A stretch of 64,000 nt of DNA from an uncultured Gammaproteobacteria bacterium (lineage in GTDB: Bacteria > Patescibacteriota > Patescibacteriia > Patescibacteriales > UBA12465): NCBI GenBank assembly GCA_964408775.1, contig CAYPAP010000002.1, positions 65,109-129,108 of the forward strand, written 5' to 3'. Made by a program: the position numbers and the translations under genes. Below, piece by piece: positions 6,405-47,597 of this stretch (positions are counted from its first letter, which is position 1; every line of letters starts with the position of its first letter). The notes under the pieces are model-generated. The model had not been told where the DNA came from, ran no database searches, and was given only the letters and a program-made list of their open reading frames with translations.

Positions 6405-6475
6405 AAGATTTGTTTTTGGTATTATTTCTAATAGAATTGCTTTTAAAATTAATAGTTTTAATAGCAATTCTATTA

Positions 6476-6860
6476 GATCAAATAGATGGTTACTGTCATT
6501 ATTATTTATTAATAAAGGCAGAGGAAAGTCCGGACTCTCAACAGTTGATAGTGGATAACGTCCACCGCTTTGTATCACTTCGGTGCTATAAAGTAGGGAA
6601 AGTGCCACAGAGACAATACTATCTCTAGCTTTCGGGTTAGAGAGAAAGGTGAAAAGTTGATTGAGGTTAATTTATTAGCCACAATCTTTGCCCTTTGGTA
6701 ACAAAGGTGTCAGGGTAAACCCTATCAGAGAGCAAGAGTAAACCATGCCTTCGGGTATGACGAAAAGTAACTCGCACGAGCTAATTAGTAATAATTAGCC
6801 TAGATAAATGACCATCACGGAGCTTCGGCTCTGGACAGAATCCGGCTTATTTTTTGATCT
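6476..6860 (+). ncRNA. rnpB: RNase P RNA, bacterial type A
   Basis: Universal motifs are present in the correct order: GAGGAAAGTCCGG (P4 5' strand), GGATAACGTCCACC, AGGGAAAGTGCCACAGA, GGGTAAACCC..AGAGAGCAAG and ACAGAATCCGGCTTA (P4 3' strand). A putative P1 pairs GATCAAA (6476-6482) with TTTGATC (6853-6859). This is a GC-rich structured island in an AT-rich intergenic gap. End points are approximate. Confidence 0.92.
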
Positions 6861-6881
6861 TTTTTATTATTTACTTATTTT

Positions 6882-11713: not shown

Positions 11714-11720
11714 GATCTTG

Positions 11721-11770
11721 CCTTCCGTGTCACCCCCGGCGAGCGTAGCGAGGGAAGGGGGTCCAGGGTT
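11721..11770. repeat. left inverted-repeat arm of the GIY-YIG cassette
   Basis: CCTTCCGTGTCACCCCCGGCGAGCGTAGCGAGGGAAGGGGGTCCAGGGTT. It pairs with 12122-12212. Confidence 0.85.
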
Positions 11771-11798
11771 GGTCCATATAAATAATAATACTTATAAA

Positions 11799-12050
11799 AT
11801 GACCAAAGAGTACAATTATTATATTTATATATTATCAAATAAAAGAAACGGAACATTATATATCGGAGTAACTAATAATTTACTCTCAAGGACATTCCAA
11901 CATAAATTAAAAGAAAATAAAAATAGCTTTAGCGCTAAATATAAAACAGACAAATTGGTTTATTATGAAAATTATCAATATATTGAAGACGCTTTAAATA
12001 GAGAGAAGGAGTTAAAAAAATGGAATAGATCTTGGAAAATAAAAAATTAA
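11799..12050 (+). CDS. small GIY-YIG nuclease (COG2827-like), apparently frameshifted; the conserved C-terminus continues in the -1 frame to 12100
   Basis: YIYILSNKRNGTLYIGVTNNLLSRTFQHK...KLVYYE...REKELKKWNRSWKI. The ATG at 11799 is preferred over the track start at 11718, which lies in the repeat arm. After the A6 run (12041-12046) the -1 frame reads KLIEEENPTWRDMFRDMD*, matching the family C-terminus as I recall it. Confidence 0.8.
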   Translation: MTKEYNYYIYILSNKRNGTLYIGVTNNLLSRTFQHKLKENKNSFSAKYKTDKLVYYENYQYIEDALNREKELKKWNRSWKIKN

Positions 12051-12121
12051 TAGAAGAAGAAAATCCTACTTGGAGGGATATGTTTAGGGATATGGATTAA
12101 TAACAAAAGATTTATCGAGTT

Positions 12122-12212
12122 AACCCTGGACCCCATTCCCTTCCCACGTAAAAACTCTCAGTTGCACTTCGTGCACCTTCGAGTTAACGTGGGTCGCCGG
12201 GGGTGACAAGGG
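12122..12212. repeat. right inverted-repeat arm of the GIY-YIG cassette with a nested hairpin
   Basis: AACCCTGGACCCC..CCCTTCCC, then the nested hairpin CCCACGT(12143-12149)...ACGTGGG(12187-12193) with an inner TGCAC-TTC-GTGCA, then TCGCCGGGGGTGAC. Confidence 0.85.
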
Positions 12213-12224
12213 AAAAATAAATTG

Positions 12225-12306
12225 TGCCGATGGTGGGAATCGAACCCACAAGCCTTGCGGCACACGAGTTTGAGTCGTGCGTGTTTGCCAGTTTCACCAC
12301 ATCGGC
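12225..12306 (-). tRNA. tRNA-Leu(CAA), class II with a long variable arm
   Basis: The reverse complement folds as a cloverleaf: acceptor GCCGATG/CATCGGC, anticodon stem CACGA/TCGTG with loop CTCAAAC (anticodon CAA), 13-nt variable arm, T arm GTGGG-TTCGATT-CCCAC, discriminator A. CCA is not encoded. Confidence 0.93.
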
Positions 12307-46241: not shown

Positions 46242-46706
46242 ATGAACGATCAAATCATGACCCAAGAGGGATATGACAAATTAAAAAATGAGTTAGATTA
46301 TTTAACTAAGGTTAAGCGCAAGGAGATTGCCGAGAGAATTGAGAGAGCTAAAGAGCTAGGAGATTTGAGCGAAAATGCTGAATATAGCGAGGCTAAGGAC
46401 GCACAAGCGCTAAATGAGGGCAGGGTTTTAGAATTAGCTGGCATCTTAAAAAATGTTACTGTGGTTAATAGTGTTAATGATAGCAGAAAAGGTGAGGTTG
46501 ATATGGGGTCTACAGTAAAAGTATTGGTTAATGGCAAGGAAAAGGAGTATATGTTGGTAAGTTTTAATGAAGCTGATCCGTTAAATGGTAAAATTTCCAA
46601 TGAATCACCCCTAGGTATGGCATTTTTGGGGAAGAAAAAAGGTGAGGAGGTATTAGTAGAAACTCCTAGAGGTGAGTTTAAATACAAGATTCTAGATGTA
46701 AAATAA
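46242..46706 (+). CDS. greA: transcription elongation factor GreA
   Basis: LTKVKRKEIAERIERAKELGDLSENAEYSEAKD and a C-terminal SNESPLGMAFLGKKKGEEV. Confidence 0.93.
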   Translation: MNDQIMTQEGYDKLKNELDYLTKVKRKEIAERIERAKELGDLSENAEYSEAKDAQALNEGRVLELAGILKNVTVVNSVNDSRKGEVDMGSTVKVLVNGKEKEYMLVSFNEADPLNGKISNESPLGMAFLGKKKGEEVLVETPRGEFKYKILDVK

Positions 46707-46745
46707 TTTTTATTAATAAAACTAAAAAATATTAAGAAAATTAAT

Positions 46746-47150
46746 ATGGATAATTGTATTTTTTGTAAAATTATTAATAAGGAAGTTGAATCTAATATTG
46801 TTTATGAAGATGCTAATGTCCTGGCCTTTTTGGATAATAATCCAATAAGTTTGGGGCATGTTTTAATTGTACCTAAAAAGCATTTTGTTAATGTTTATGA
46901 TATTGAAGAGGGTAGTTTGAAGGAAATAATAGTGGCAGCTAAAAAAATTGCTTTAACTTATAAAGAGGTTTTTGGGATTACTGACCTTAATCTATTACAT
47001 AATGCCGGCAGTAATGGTCAACAAGCTGTTTTTCATTTTCACCTTCATTTAATTCCGAGGAAAGAGGGTGATGATGTGGATTTTGATAATAAGAAATTTC
47101 CGGAATTGAAGGAGAGATATTCGGAGTTTATTGAGAAGTTGAAAGTTTAG
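46746..47150 (+). CDS. HIT-family nucleotide hydrolase
   Basis: CIFCKII and the histidine triad HFHLHLIP. Confidence 0.9.
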   Translation: MDNCIFCKIINKEVESNIVYEDANVLAFLDNNPISLGHVLIVPKKHFVNVYDIEEGSLKEIIVAAKKIALTYKEVFGITDLNLLHNAGSNGQQAVFHFHLHLIPRKEGDDVDFDNKKFPELKERYSEFIEKLKV

Positions 47151-47225
47151 AAATATACCGCCTTCCTCAAGGCTTCGGCGTATTACAAGTCGCCTGCGCT
47201 ACTTTGTAGCTACGGCGTGTTATAA

Positions 47226-47296
47226 TCGGGGATCGTCTAATGGTAGGACTGCAGGTTCTGGTCCTGTATATCTGGGTTCGAATCCTAGTCCCCGAG
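47226..47296 (+). tRNA. tRNA-Gln(CUG)
   Basis: Acceptor TCGGGGA/TCCCCGA (U1-A72), D arm GTCT-AATGGTA-GGAC, anticodon stem GCAGG/CCTGT with loop TTCTGGT (CTG), T arm CTGGG-TTCGAAT-CCTAG, discriminator G. No encoded CCA. Confidence 0.93.
47279..47296 (+). repeat. direct repeat copy 1 (the 3' end of tRNA-Gln)
   Basis: CGAATCCTAGTCCCCGAG, identical to 47482-47499. Confidence 0.95.
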
Positions 47297-47302
47297 CGAG
47301 TG

Positions 47303-47328
47303 AAAAAACACCCTTTGGGGTGTTTTTT
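47303..47328 (+). terminator. terminator after tRNA-Gln
   Basis: ACACCC-TTTG-GGGTGT followed by TTTTT. Confidence 0.75.
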
Positions 47329-47330
47329 GC

Positions 47331-47481
47331 GAGTGAGGGGAAGCGAAGTGCCTGCGCACTTCGCGCCTAGGATGAGAAAGCCGGAGCGATGTGTGAGCGT
47401 AGCGAGCACCGCGAGGCCAGGCCAGAGCGCTTAGTGAGCGTAGACTGCGTAGCAGTCAAGCGAGACTTAGCGACGTGTGGC
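47331..47481. other. GC-rich non-coding insert between the two tRNA-Gln 3'-end copies
   Basis: Hairpin GCGAAGTGC-CTGC-GCACTTCGC (47343-47364). 10-nt direct repeat GTGAGCGTAG (47393-47402 and 47434-47443). Recurrent GCGAG/GCGTAG words. The ORFs predicted here have no coding features. Confidence 0.7.
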
Positions 47482-47499
47482 CGAATCCTAGTCCCCGAG
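47482..47499 (+). repeat. direct repeat copy 2 (orphan tRNA-Gln 3' end)
   Basis: CGAATCCTAGTCCCCGAG. No matching T-stem or acceptor 5' strand lies upstream, so this is not a second tRNA. Confidence 0.95.
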
Positions 47500-47510
47500 C
47501 TACGATCAAG

Positions 47511-47535
47511 AACACCTGTAAACACAGGTGTTTTT
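47511..47535 (+). terminator. second terminator, after the orphan 3'-end copy
   Basis: CACCTGT-AAAC-ACAGGTG followed by TTTTT. Confidence 0.75.
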
Positions 47536-47597
47536 GTTTATATTTTAGCTCGAATCCTTGTTGAGGTATAGATTTAATTATGATATAATATAATTAT

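What the first reader, a model, noticed from the sequence alone, without database searches (positions are those of the whole stretch)
47343..47406. The two tRNA-3'-associated GC islands share sequence words, suggesting one element family
The 12-mer GAGCGTAGCGAG occurs in the left arm of the GIY-YIG cassette (11741-11752) and in the tRNA-Gln insert (47395-47406). In both places CCAGG follows exactly 10 nt later. The 8-mer GCACTTCG sits inside a hairpin in both the cassette's right arm (12164-12171) and the tRNA-Gln insert (47356-47363). My rough estimate is that a specific GC-rich 12-mer recurs by chance in 64 kb of this composition at the order of 1e-3. Both islands abut the 3' end of a tRNA gene. 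Inference: the ORF-less tRNA-Gln insert may be a decayed or miniature (MITE-like) relative of the GIY-YIG cassette. That would make a nuclease-plus-structured-DNA/RNA module that homes next to tRNA genes.
Basis: inference. Interest (0 to 1): 0.62.

Follow-up and report, generated by a model that had tools for sequence, protein, structure and literature searches.

The report
Shared hairpin cap, two unrelated inserts
The two GC-rich islands are different things: one is a known small nuclease gene (Ssn) with its flanking hairpin repeats. The other belongs to an apparently undescribed family of about 170-base folded elements inserted at the 3' ends of tRNA genes, and all the two share is a 12-base hairpin tip.

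Summary
GAGCGTAGCGAG occurs only at 11741-11752 and 47395-47406, with CCAGG 10 nt later in both. Inside this window alone it is weak evidence: pairwise 8/1000 shuffles reach it, and family-wise 27%.

The GIY-YIG cassette is a member of the published Ssn/SRM system (Chenal 2025). It is an 83-aa single-domain GIY-YIG gene between two inverted SRM hairpins of the GTCA-stem-loop-stem-TCCAG type. The 12-mer sits in the enlarged loop of the left hairpin. None of 80 Ssn loci from other genomes has a tRNA within 1.3 kb. A relative with 96% identical ParA lacks the whole cassette.

The tRNA-Gln insert, called X here (47331-47500), lies between perfect 19-nt direct repeats of the tRNA 3' end. I found related copies after tRNA-Gln(CUG), tRNA-Gln(UUG), tRNA-Leu and tRNA-Asn in other Patescibacteria-like contigs. 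Five relatives have empty sites. Its fold shows strong covariation, with compensatory changes in 36 of 51 pairs. No Rfam family matches it.

The 11-12-mer is the conserved tip of X's hairpins. It also appears in an SRM loop of an unrelated alphaproteobacterium. Reciprocal covariance models show no further similarity between the two islands.

Verdict: a shared hairpin-cap module, not one element family. X is the interesting object.

The parts
47226..47297 (+). tRNA-Gln(CUG) gene, the target of the insertion
   Evidence: ARAGORN; Rfam tRNA 55.3 bits
47279..47297 (+). Direct repeat copy 1 (DR1), CGAATCCTAGTCCCCGAGC. It runs from T-loop position C56 to the 3' end of the tRNA.
   Evidence: the repeat finder family D3: 19/19 identical, spacing 203
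47303..47328 (+). Hairpin T1 (AAAAAACACCC/GGGTGTTTTTT), a terminator-like stem-loop placed directly after the tRNA. It belongs to the inserted segment.
   Evidence: Inverted repeat I3, 11 bp, 100% complementary. The homologues L091 and L106 have a hairpin at the same place, with compensatory changes.
47331..47500 (+). Structured element X. Sub-parts: P1 47337-47341 / 47492-47496; H1 47343-47364; P2 47367-47373 / 47485-47491; junction GAGAAA 47374-47379; H2 47380-47417; H3 47420-47482.
   Evidence: Covariance-model hit at 182.5 bits and the only hit in the window with filters off. RNA fold z-score -6.3. Covariation in 36 of 51 pairs.
47395..47406 (+). The flagged 12-mer GAGCGTAGCGAG, which is the apical cap of hairpin H2 (GA-GC-GTA-GC-GA)
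   Evidence: The tip GAGCG(T/A)AGCGA is present in all seven family members, in H2 in six and in the single distal hairpin of L040, whose H2 is missing.
47482..47500 (+). Direct repeat copy 2 (DR2). It also forms the 3' strands of P2 and P1 of X.
   Evidence: The 5' strands of P1 and P2 covary with the type of tRNA 3' end in L106 and L040.
47507..47536 (+). Terminator T2, probably the original terminator of tRNA-Gln
   Evidence: Terminator scan. Empty-site relatives have a terminator directly after the tRNA.
47539..47561 (+). Third, degenerate copy of the tRNA-Gln T-arm and 3' part (18/23 identical)
   Evidence: the repeat finder family D2. I ran no separate test against chance.
11726..11768 (+). 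Left SRM hairpin of the Ssn cassette: GTCA-CCCCC-[19-nt loop holding the 12-mer at 11741-11752]-GGGGG-TCCAGG
   Evidence: SRM covariance model R3, 20.7 bits, E 0.003, the only significant hit in the window. Foreign SRMs such as GTCACCCCCGCGAAGGCGGGGGTCCAG have the same flanks and stem.
11799..12050 (+). ssnA-like gene: an 83-aa single-domain GIY-YIG nuclease
   Evidence: Pfam GIY-YIG, E 4.8e-16. The strict published pattern finds at least one within 500 bp in 50 of the 80.
12122..12211 (-). Right SRM hairpin in inverted orientation: GTCACCCCCGGCGA-[about 60-nt insert with its own hairpin, holding GCACTTCG]-GGGGTCCAGGGTT
   Evidence: Exact minus-strand copies of both halves of the left arm. Inverted repeats I1 and I2. 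The covariance model R3 does not detect it, because of the large loop insert.
12224..12306 (-). tRNA-Leu(CAA). Its 3' end lies 12 nt from the right SRM.
   Evidence: ARAGORN. The same tRNA is present without the cassette in L115, L116 and L117.

Best explanation
The two islands are two different insertions. They share only a small modular hairpin tip.

(1) 11717-12216 is an SRM-ssnA-SRM cassette of the published Ssn family. In that family a roughly 90-aa GIY-YIG enzyme binds its own flanking hairpin repeats as single-stranded DNA and cuts a few bases 5' of them. Here both hairpins have enlarged loops, and the left loop holds CGAGCGTAGCGAG. The position next to tRNA-Leu is incidental: the cassette sits in the spacer between two convergent genes and is absent from a very close relative.

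(2) 47298-47500 is a 203-bp unit made of terminator hairpin T1, the structured element X and a second copy of the last 19 nt of tRNA-Gln. X belongs to a family found just downstream of tRNA-Gln(CUG), tRNA-Gln(UUG), tRNA-Leu(CAA) and tRNA-Asn(GUU) genes in Patescibacteria-like genomes. In the three best-preserved lineages (window/L091, L106, L040) the 3' end of X repeats the 3' end of its own tRNA from T-loop position C56 onward. In L097 only 8 nt of that repeat remain. Two internal segments of X pair with that copy, giving a 12-bp helix that resembles the tRNA acceptor/T-arm. The helix carries a hairpin (H1) and a three-way junction (GAGAAA, H2, H3).

Most likely mechanism (inferred): X is a miniature, non-autonomous element that enters the T-loop-to-3'-end att site of tRNA genes by site-specific recombination, using an enzyme supplied in trans. 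It restores the tRNA and gives it a new terminator. Its conserved fold acts on the tRNA-sense strand, either as RNA made by read-through of T1 or as folded single-stranded DNA.

(3) The shared word is a compact hairpin cap: two GC pairs closing a G-N-A triloop, flanked by two G.A pairs. Both hairpin families use it at stem tips. It does not show common descent of the two elements.

Shown by tool results: the identities of both elements, the direct repeats, the empty sites, the covariation and the lack of wider similarity.
Inferred: mobility by an integrase, the RNA-versus-ssDNA question, and why the cap recurs.
For: Cassette:
- Pfam GIY-YIG.
- The Ssn/SRM system and its defining pattern are described in PMC11893778.
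- Of the 80 related loci, a sample of 20 read by eye mostly carry GTCA...TCCAG hairpins on both sides. With the strict published pattern, 50 of 80 have at least one within 500 bp.
- The SRM model hits 11726-11768. The right arm holds exact copies of both halves of the left arm.
- Empty site in L115, whose ParA is 96% identical.
- No tRNA within 1.3 kb in any of the 80 loci.

X:
- 19/19 direct repeat.
- Homologues L091 and L106/L099/L100.
- Distant members L097 (after tRNA-Asn), L040 (after tRNA-Leu, with an 18-nt direct repeat plus four decayed copies), L107 and L094.
- Empty sites in L087, L088, L111, L112 and L113.
- 96% of cells paired; 36 of 51 pairs have changes on both sides, against 3-6 when the partners are slid.
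- G.U pairs that only work on the + strand.
- P1-H2 is 95% identical between the window and L091, against 77% for the neighbouring genes and 60% for the flanking spacers.
- No Rfam match.

No wider similarity between the two islands.

Motif recurrence.
Against: - No integrase or other recombinase was found next to any X copy, and I did not screen the 64-kb window for one.
- A 203-bp unit leaves no room for a promoter. If X works as RNA it needs read-through of T1.
- A pure att-site element would not need a covarying fold.
- Only seven sequences, about five independent lineages, support the structure, and alignment A5 was fitted to the model.
- Patchy presence could also come from deletions between the direct repeats rather than from insertions.
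- The exact 12-14-mer identity between the SRM loop and X loops could reflect a shared binding protein or sequence exchange rather than a neutral structural module.
- The special stability of GNA-triloop/tandem-GA caps rests on my own knowledge of DNA mini-hairpin literature. The ViennaRNA DNA parameters do not show it.
Confidence: 0.6

Rival explanations
1. One system: X is a non-autonomous partner or miniature derivative of the Ssn cassette. The Ssn nuclease recognises the GAGCGTAGCGA-capped hairpins H2 and H3 in single-stranded DNA and drives their spread to tRNA 3' ends.
For: - The identical 12-mer (13-mer with the closing C) sits at hairpin tips in both elements of the same genome.
- The same 11-mer is in an SRM loop in L017.
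- X H2 is followed by a C, as SRMs are.
- L040 has an X-like element 2 kb from an ssnA gene.
- The Ssn paper notes that the cassette has the architecture of an insertion sequence.
Against: - The reciprocal covariance models fail.
- X has no GTC 5' flank, which the paper reports as needed for cleavage.
- CCAGG is not conserved, and the base after H2 is G in L097.
- The paper reports that loop identity does not matter for Ssn, so a shared loop is a poor sign of shared recognition.
- 79 of 80 ssnA loci have no X, and none is next to a tRNA.
- GIY-YIG enzymes cut but do not join DNA (established knowledge of the superfamily).
Confidence: 0.1
2. X is a resident tRNA-like non-coding RNA gene, or a cis-acting element of the tRNA transcript. 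It would have arisen from the neighbouring tRNA and would not be mobile. Its patchy distribution would reflect loss by recombination between the direct repeats.
For: - Strong covariation, with G.U pairs on the tRNA-sense strand.
- A 12-bp acceptor/T-arm-like helix.
- Its own downstream terminator T2.
- 95% conservation of P1-H2.
- Internal segments complementary to the tRNA 3' strand could also pair with the upstream tRNA.
Against: - The same core (GGAUGAGAAAG, H2, H3, GUGACCGA) sits behind four different tRNA genes in unrelated gene contexts, with ends matched to each tRNA. That requires transfer between loci.
- Five of seven relatives at the HIT-tRNA-Gln locus lack it, including the two closest relatives.
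- Decayed tandem copies in L040.
- No promoter, and a terminator-like hairpin (T1) directly upstream (the terminator scan did not list T1).
Confidence: 0.18
3. The shared 12-mer is a coincidence between two GC-rich, AGCG-rich hairpin regions and means nothing.
For: - Family-wise, 27% of island shuffles give some shared 12-mer.
- The alignment does not extend beyond the word.
- The 8-mer and the CCAGG are at chance level or not conserved.
Against: - The word is the one invariant loop of the X family.
- It lands exactly at the tip of the SRM hairpin in the window, and again in L017, out of 381 kb of foreign Ssn loci. My rough estimate for each coincidence is about 1e-3.
Confidence: 0.07
4. X is only the scar of a decayed larger prophage or island: attL and attR arms left after an internal deletion, with no function of its own.
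For: - Direct repeats of the classical T-loop-to-3'-end type.
- Further decayed tRNA 3' fragments at 47539-47561, in L113 and in L040.
- A LAGLIDADG gene at the same locus in relatives shows the site is a hotspot.
Against: - Similar size and the same architecture in about five lineages, with compensatory changes.
- 95% identity where the neighbouring genes show 77%.
- No hits in viral contigs or phage records.
Confidence: 0.05

Closest known systems
Ssn / SRM (NTS) system: SsnA site-specific ssDNA nuclease with flanking hairpin repeats (Chenal et al., Nat Commun 2025, PMC11893778)
   Same: Applies to the cassette at 11717-12216. It has a roughly 90-aa single-domain GIY-YIG protein. The gene lies between two inverted hairpin repeats with GTCA on the 5' side and TCCAG on the 3' side. 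The stem type GTCACCCCC...GGGGGTCCAG is seen in other genomes. It has many relatives across phyla.
   Different: Both hairpins here have enlarged loops (19 nt and about 60 nt), so the published strict pattern finds none in the window. No solo copies occur in the 64 kb. The whole cassette is present or absent between close relatives, which the paper only hypothesised. The tRNA-Gln insert is not a member.
Integrase att sites in tRNA genes, T-loop sublocation, and small non-autonomous integrative elements (CIME-like). This comparison rests on my own knowledge.
   Same: Applies to X. The direct repeat runs from the T-loop to the tRNA 3' end (18-19 bp). The tRNA is restored and given a new terminator. 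Relatives have empty sites. Decayed copies occur in tandem.
   Different: X is only about 200 bp and has no genes. It has a conserved, covarying fold that uses the repeat itself as one strand. No integrase was seen nearby.
REP/RAYT and IS200/IS605-derived hairpin elements; integron attC sites (structure conserved more than sequence, act as folded ssDNA)
   Same: Hairpin-rich, ORF-less, strand-specific structure. Possible action as single-stranded DNA. GNA- or GNRA-type stable hairpin tips.
   Different: Those elements do not duplicate 19 nt of a tRNA, and they are not tRNA-like. X gave no hit to any Rfam model, including the models associated with such elements.
tRNA-like RNAs (tmRNA tRNA-like domain, YrlA, viral TLS)
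   Same: X has an acceptor/T-arm-like 12-bp helix whose 3' strand is identical to that of a real tRNA.
   Different: X has no T-loop, no D or anticodon arm, no tag reading frame conserved between the window and L091, and no ARAGORN or Rfam match.

Membership tests
Ssn/SRM system (cassette 11717-12216) | Small (under 150 aa) single-domain GIY-YIG protein | tested here: met
   83 aa. Pfam GIY-YIG covers residues 6-81, E 4.8e-16.
Ssn/SRM system (cassette 11717-12216) | Membership of CDD family cd10448 / clade with N. meningitidis SsnA | not testable with these tools
   No CDD library or SsnA sequence was at hand. Indirect support: its 46-71% identical relatives are flanked by canonical SRMs.
Ssn/SRM system (cassette 11717-12216) | SRM hairpins on both sides of the gene, in inverted orientation | tested here: met
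   Left arm: SRM covariance model, 20.7 bits, E 0.003. Right arm: exact minus-strand copies of GTCACCCCCGGCGA and GGGGTCCAGGGTT.
Ssn/SRM system (cassette 11717-12216) | Match to the published degenerate pattern HGTCWYN(0-2)YYVSBRHN(0-5)WNVSBRGN(0-2)RNCYNB | tested here: not met
   0 hits in the window, because the loops are 19 and about 60 nt where the pattern allows 0-5 variable bases at the loop. The flanks and stems fit. The paper reports that loop identity and loop extensions do not prevent cleavage.
Ssn/SRM system (cassette 11717-12216) | ssDNA-specific cleavage 5' of the hairpin | not testable with these tools
   Biochemical property.
SRM hairpin (applied to the tRNA-Gln insert 47298-47500) | GTCW 5' flank, 6-8 bp stem of the YYVSB type, and RNCYNB 3' flank | tested here: not met
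   No SRM-pattern hit. No SRM covariance-model hit at E up to 10 with filters off. No GTC lies 5' of H2 or H3.
Integrase-type tRNA att element (X) | Direct repeats made of the tRNA 3' part flanking the insert; tRNA left intact | tested here: met
   19/19 in the window and in L091, 18/18 in L040, 17/19 in L106.
Integrase-type tRNA att element (X) | Empty sites in related genomes | tested here: met
   L087, L088, L111, L112 and L113 have tRNA-Gln followed directly by other sequence and no X-model hit.
Integrase-type tRNA att element (X) | A tyrosine or serine recombinase, in the element or in the genome, that acts on it | not tested
   No ORF fits inside X. The called genes within the few kb held around the copies in the window, L091 and L106 have no recombinase Pfam hit on record, and the L106 ORFs were only read by eye. 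The window and the rest of the genome were not screened.
Any Rfam RNA family (X) | Covariance-model match | tested here: not met
   Only the tRNA reaches its threshold. The best other matches have E of 0.2 or more and score far below the families' gathering scores.

The most novel reading that the evidence does not exclude
X is a new class of tRNA-mimicking, non-autonomous mobile element of Patescibacteria. It would select its tRNA target through its own internal antisense segments to the tRNA 3' end, in a guide-like way. Its GAGCGNAGCGA-capped hairpins would be handled as single-stranded DNA by the same small Ssn nuclease that owns the SRM repeats, giving Ssn a role in moving DNA.
Probability: 0.1. 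Interest if true: 0.85.

Novelty: new variant of a known kind. Interest (0 to 1): 0.55.

Why it matters
The cassette adds a Patescibacteria example to the recently described Ssn/SRM system. It also gives direct comparative evidence that the whole SRM-ssnA-SRM unit comes and goes as a block, which the original paper only hypothesised.

The tRNA-Gln insert is the more valuable result. It is a compact element with a covariation-supported fold, absent from Rfam, attached to the 3' ends of several different tRNA genes, and with ends tailored to each tRNA. If it is mobile, it is among the smallest tRNA-targeting elements. If it is an RNA, it is a new tRNA-like RNA in organisms with very small genomes. 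Either way it is directly testable.

The case also shows that a short shared GC-rich word can be a reusable hairpin tip rather than a mark of homology.

Tried and rejected
- Rfam at gathering and at E-value thresholds, on the window, on both islands and on eight related loci: only tRNAs and RNase P RNA.
- tmRNA reading of X: ARAGORN finds none, and the candidate tag frame has no stop in L091.
- Hammerhead, SRP and 6S readings of GGAUGAGAAAG and GGCCAGGCC: the cores do not fit on reading the sequence, and there is no Rfam support.
- Phage or island origin: junction patterns and the core pattern found nothing in viral contigs. BLAST against phages gave only a 33-nt chance hit.
- The published strict SRM pattern in the window: 0 hits. 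I replaced it with a covariance model.
- Of the 18 metagenome pattern hits, 6 are X-like: L099, L100 and L106 by alignment score, and L094, L097 and L107 only with the covariance model. The other 12 look like chance matches, with no hit at E up to 1 with model R2.
- Literature searches for the motif strings and for small tRNA-linked elements found nothing relevant.
- DNA folding energies of the isolated hairpins are no better than shuffles. The nearest-neighbour parameters do not capture GNA-triloop or tandem-GA stability.
- I considered that the cassette arm next to tRNA-Leu might hide an X-like element. There is no model hit there.

Full report
**1. The observation**

The 12-mer GAGCGTAGCGAG occurs exactly twice in the 64-kb window, at 11741-11752 and 47395-47406, both on the + strand. 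CCAGG follows 10 nt later in both places, at 11763-11767 and 47417-47421. GCACTTCG occurs at 12164-12171 and 47356-47363, plus its palindromic partner at 47344-47351. tRNA-Leu(CAA) lies at 12224-12306 (-) and tRNA-Gln(CUG) at 47226-47297 (+), so both islands abut a tRNA 3' end.

A formal local alignment of the cassette's left arm against the insert recovers only the 12-mer. Its score is reached by 8 of 1000 dinucleotide shuffles. The right arm is not significant, at 242 of 1000. When all 26 GC-rich islands of the window are shuffled, 27% of trials give some island pair that shares a 12-mer. On in-window evidence alone the match is therefore unremarkable. Its meaning comes from comparison with other genomes.

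**2. The GIY-YIG cassette**

The ORF at 11799-12050 encodes an 83-aa single-domain GIY-YIG protein. A scan of one genome per species found at least 549 relatives, and I kept the best 80 loci, which span many phyla. In a sample of 20 that I read, most are flanked upstream by GTCATTCCCGCGAAGGCGGGAATCCAG-like hairpins and downstream by the reverse complement, often with extra solo copies.

This is the system published as Ssn/SRM. SsnA is a roughly 94-aa GIY-YIG nuclease that binds its flanking NTS/SRM hairpins only as single-stranded DNA and cuts a few bases upstream. Loop identity is not essential and loops can be extended (PMC11893778).

The window's arms are SRM variants.
- Left arm: GTCA-CCCCC-[GGCGAGCGTAGCGAGGGAA]-GGGGG-TCCAGG.
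- Right arm (minus strand): the same two halves around an insert of about 60 nt.

The strict published pattern finds none in the window, because of the large loops. A covariance model built from 46 foreign SRMs hits 11726-11768 at 20.7 bits, E 0.003. That is the only significant hit in the window. The 12-mer is thus the tip of the enlarged loop of the left SRM.

tRNA adjacency is not a property of the family. Only 5 of the 80 loci have any tRNA within 2.5 kb, and the nearest is 1.37 kb away. A close relative with 96% identical ParA and the same gene order has only 42 nt between mnmA and tRNA-Leu and no cassette. Two further relatives also lack it. The cassette therefore behaves as a block that is gained or lost.

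**3. The tRNA-Gln insert**

The last 19 nt of tRNA-Gln (CGAATCCTAGTCCCCGAGC, from T-loop position C56 to the 3' end) recur perfectly 203 nt downstream, at 47482-47500. Between the two copies lie a terminator-like hairpin (T1, 47303-47328) and a GC-rich segment that I call X. After the second copy comes a second terminator (T2, 47507-47536).

X folds far better than shuffles, with z -6.3.
- A 5' GGGGA and CTAGGAT pair with the repeated tRNA 3' end, forming P1 and P2. Together they make a 12-bp helix like the tRNA acceptor/T-arm.
- Between P1 and P2 sits hairpin H1.
- P2 opens into a three-way junction made of GAGAAA, H2 and H3.
- The 12-mer is the tip of H2.

**4. Relatives of X**

Synteny look-ups through the neighbouring HIT gene gave seven related HIT-tRNA-Gln loci with sequence downstream of the tRNA, the window's own among them. 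(An eighth contig, L092, ends exactly at the tRNA 3' end, so it says nothing about the insert.) One relative, L091 (HIT protein 77% identical), has a homologous insert with the same direct repeat. Five relatives have the tRNA followed directly by other sequence: L087, L088, L111, L112 and L113. These include the two closest, at 86% and 83% HIT identity.

A metagenome pattern scan found X after tRNA-Gln(UUG) in a different gene context, ftsEX on one side and arsR on the other (L106; near-identical L099 and L100). A covariance model of these sequences then found distant members:
- about 50 nt downstream of tRNA-Asn(GUU) (L097);
- downstream of tRNA-Leu(CAA) in a Nomurabacteria genome (L040), with an 18-nt direct repeat and four further decayed copies;
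- two more, L107 and L094, behind a short minihelix-like sequence rather than a tRNA.

The shared core is (A/G)GGAUGAGAAAG, H2, H3, GUGACCGA(A/G)UCC.

Across the seven sequences, 96% of cells are paired. Of the 51 pairs, 36 show changes on both sides, against 3-6 when the partners are slid by one to three columns. This alignment was fitted to the model, which favours the structure. An independent RNAalifold run on five sequences gave 17 of 65 pairs with compensatory changes.

H1 is completely replaced in sequence yet stays a hairpin. The 5' strands of P1 and P2 change in step with the type of tRNA 3' end, and G.U pairs appear that work only on the tRNA-sense strand.

Between the window and L091, P1-H2 is 95% identical. 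The neighbouring genes are 77% identical and the flanking spacers about 60%.

No Rfam family matches, and there are no phage or viral hits. X is the only copy in the window.

**5. Are the two islands one family?**

No.
- The X model finds only the 13-nt loop in the cassette, at 6.1 bits and E 0.14 in 2 kb.
- The SRM model finds nothing in X.
- X has no GTC 5' flank.
- The CCAGG is CCGGG in L091 and L106.
- GCACTTCG is absent from the H1 of L106.

What the two do share is real but small. GAGCG(T/A)AGCGA is the conserved hairpin tip in every X member: it occurs twice in L106, and as GAGCGAAGCGAG in L040. L097 and L107 share the 14-mer CGAGCGTAGCGAGG with the window's SRM loop. The same 11-mer also sits in the loop of an SRM next to an ssnA gene in an alphaproteobacterial genome, and that is the only occurrence in 381 kb of foreign Ssn loci.

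In each case the word lies at the apex of a hairpin. It reads as GA-GC-GNA-GC-GA: two GC pairs closing a G-N-A triloop, flanked by two potential sheared G.A pairs. From my own knowledge of the DNA mini-hairpin literature (d(GCGNAGC)-type loops), such caps are unusually stable, and ordinary SRM loops (GCGAAAGC, GCGAAGGC, GCGTAGGC) are of the same kind. I therefore read the word as a reusable hairpin cap. A shared binding protein, or sequence exchange between the two hairpin families, is not excluded.

**6. Mechanism**

For the cassette, the published mechanism applies by homology: an ssDNA hairpin-specific nuclease with its own sites.

For X, several features fit integration at the classical T-loop-type tRNA att site by a recombinase supplied in trans:
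- direct repeats that start at the same T-loop base in the three best-preserved lineages;
- restoration of the tRNA with a new terminator;
- empty sites in close relatives;
- presence behind four different tRNA genes;
- tandem decayed copies.

The covarying, strand-specific fold shows that the element also has a function as folded nucleic acid. That could be RNA made by read-through of T1, since no promoter fits, or single-stranded DNA.

I put about 0.6 on [quoted passage not shown]. The remainder is split among four rivals: a resident tRNA-like RNA gene, an Ssn-linked system, pure coincidence, and a functionless scar.

**7. Novelty**

The cassette is a new member of a known family. It adds one useful observation, the presence/absence of the whole block between close relatives. 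I found no description of X in Rfam 15 or in the searchable literature. It is best called a new variant of tRNA-targeting integrative elements, and it could prove to be a new RNA class. The organism is a Patescibacteria (CPR) bacterium; some homologues of its ParA and HIT proteins are annotated as Candidatus Falkowbacteria.

Noticed in passing
window 11717-12216; L115 2278-2309: The whole SRM-ssnA-SRM cassette (about 500 bp) is missing from a relative with 96% identical ParA and the same mnmA / tRNA-Leu / parAB / dnaE order. That relative has only a 42-nt spacer there. This is direct evidence that the Ssn cassette is gained or lost as a unit.
   Followed up: partly
L088 2959-3648; L113 1966-2655; L114 466-1155: Relatives carry a free-standing 229-aa LAGLIDADG-type ORF between the HIT gene and tRNA-Gln. 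The window has only a 75-nt GC-rich spacer at that position (47151-47225).
   Followed up: no
window 46706-46746, compared with L088, L091, L092, L111-L113: In the relatives a 486-aa class II aminoacyl-tRNA synthetase gene (Pfam tRNA-synt_2) lies between greA and the HIT gene. In the window greA is followed directly by HIT, so the gene has moved or been lost here.
   Followed up: no
window 47539-47561; L113 about 2840-2860; L040 620-755: Extra degenerate copies of tRNA T-arm and 3' fragments lie downstream of the tRNA or X. L040 has four GTGRCCGAGTCCTCTC copies. This suggests repeated events at the same tRNA 3' ends.
   Followed up: partly
L094 4680-4760; L107 500-440 (minus strand): Two X-like elements follow a TAGAAT promoter-like box and a conserved sequence of about 50 nt ending in GGGGTACTNNACCCGARTACACCGCA, rather than an annotated tRNA. 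This may be a small minihelix-like RNA. It matches no Rfam family.
   Followed up: partly
window 12115-12124 and 12179-12188: A 10-nt direct repeat, TCGAGTTAAC, brackets a 64-nt stretch of the right SRM arm. It may be a trace of the event that enlarged that hairpin's loop.
   Followed up: no
L091 3230-3400: Directly after X and its terminator, L091 has a further GC-rich stretch rich in hairpins. It includes CACGTGGCGTAGCCGCGTGG, which carries another C-GTA-G triloop. I did not identify it.
   Followed up: no
L002 (Logan SRR10872584 contig end); L092 contig end: Two independent assemblies break inside tRNA-Gln or exactly at its end. Population variation or a repeat at this site would explain this.
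   Followed up: no
window 6474-6865: A bacterial class A RNase P RNA gene, 197 bits, with a full-length model match.
   Followed up: no
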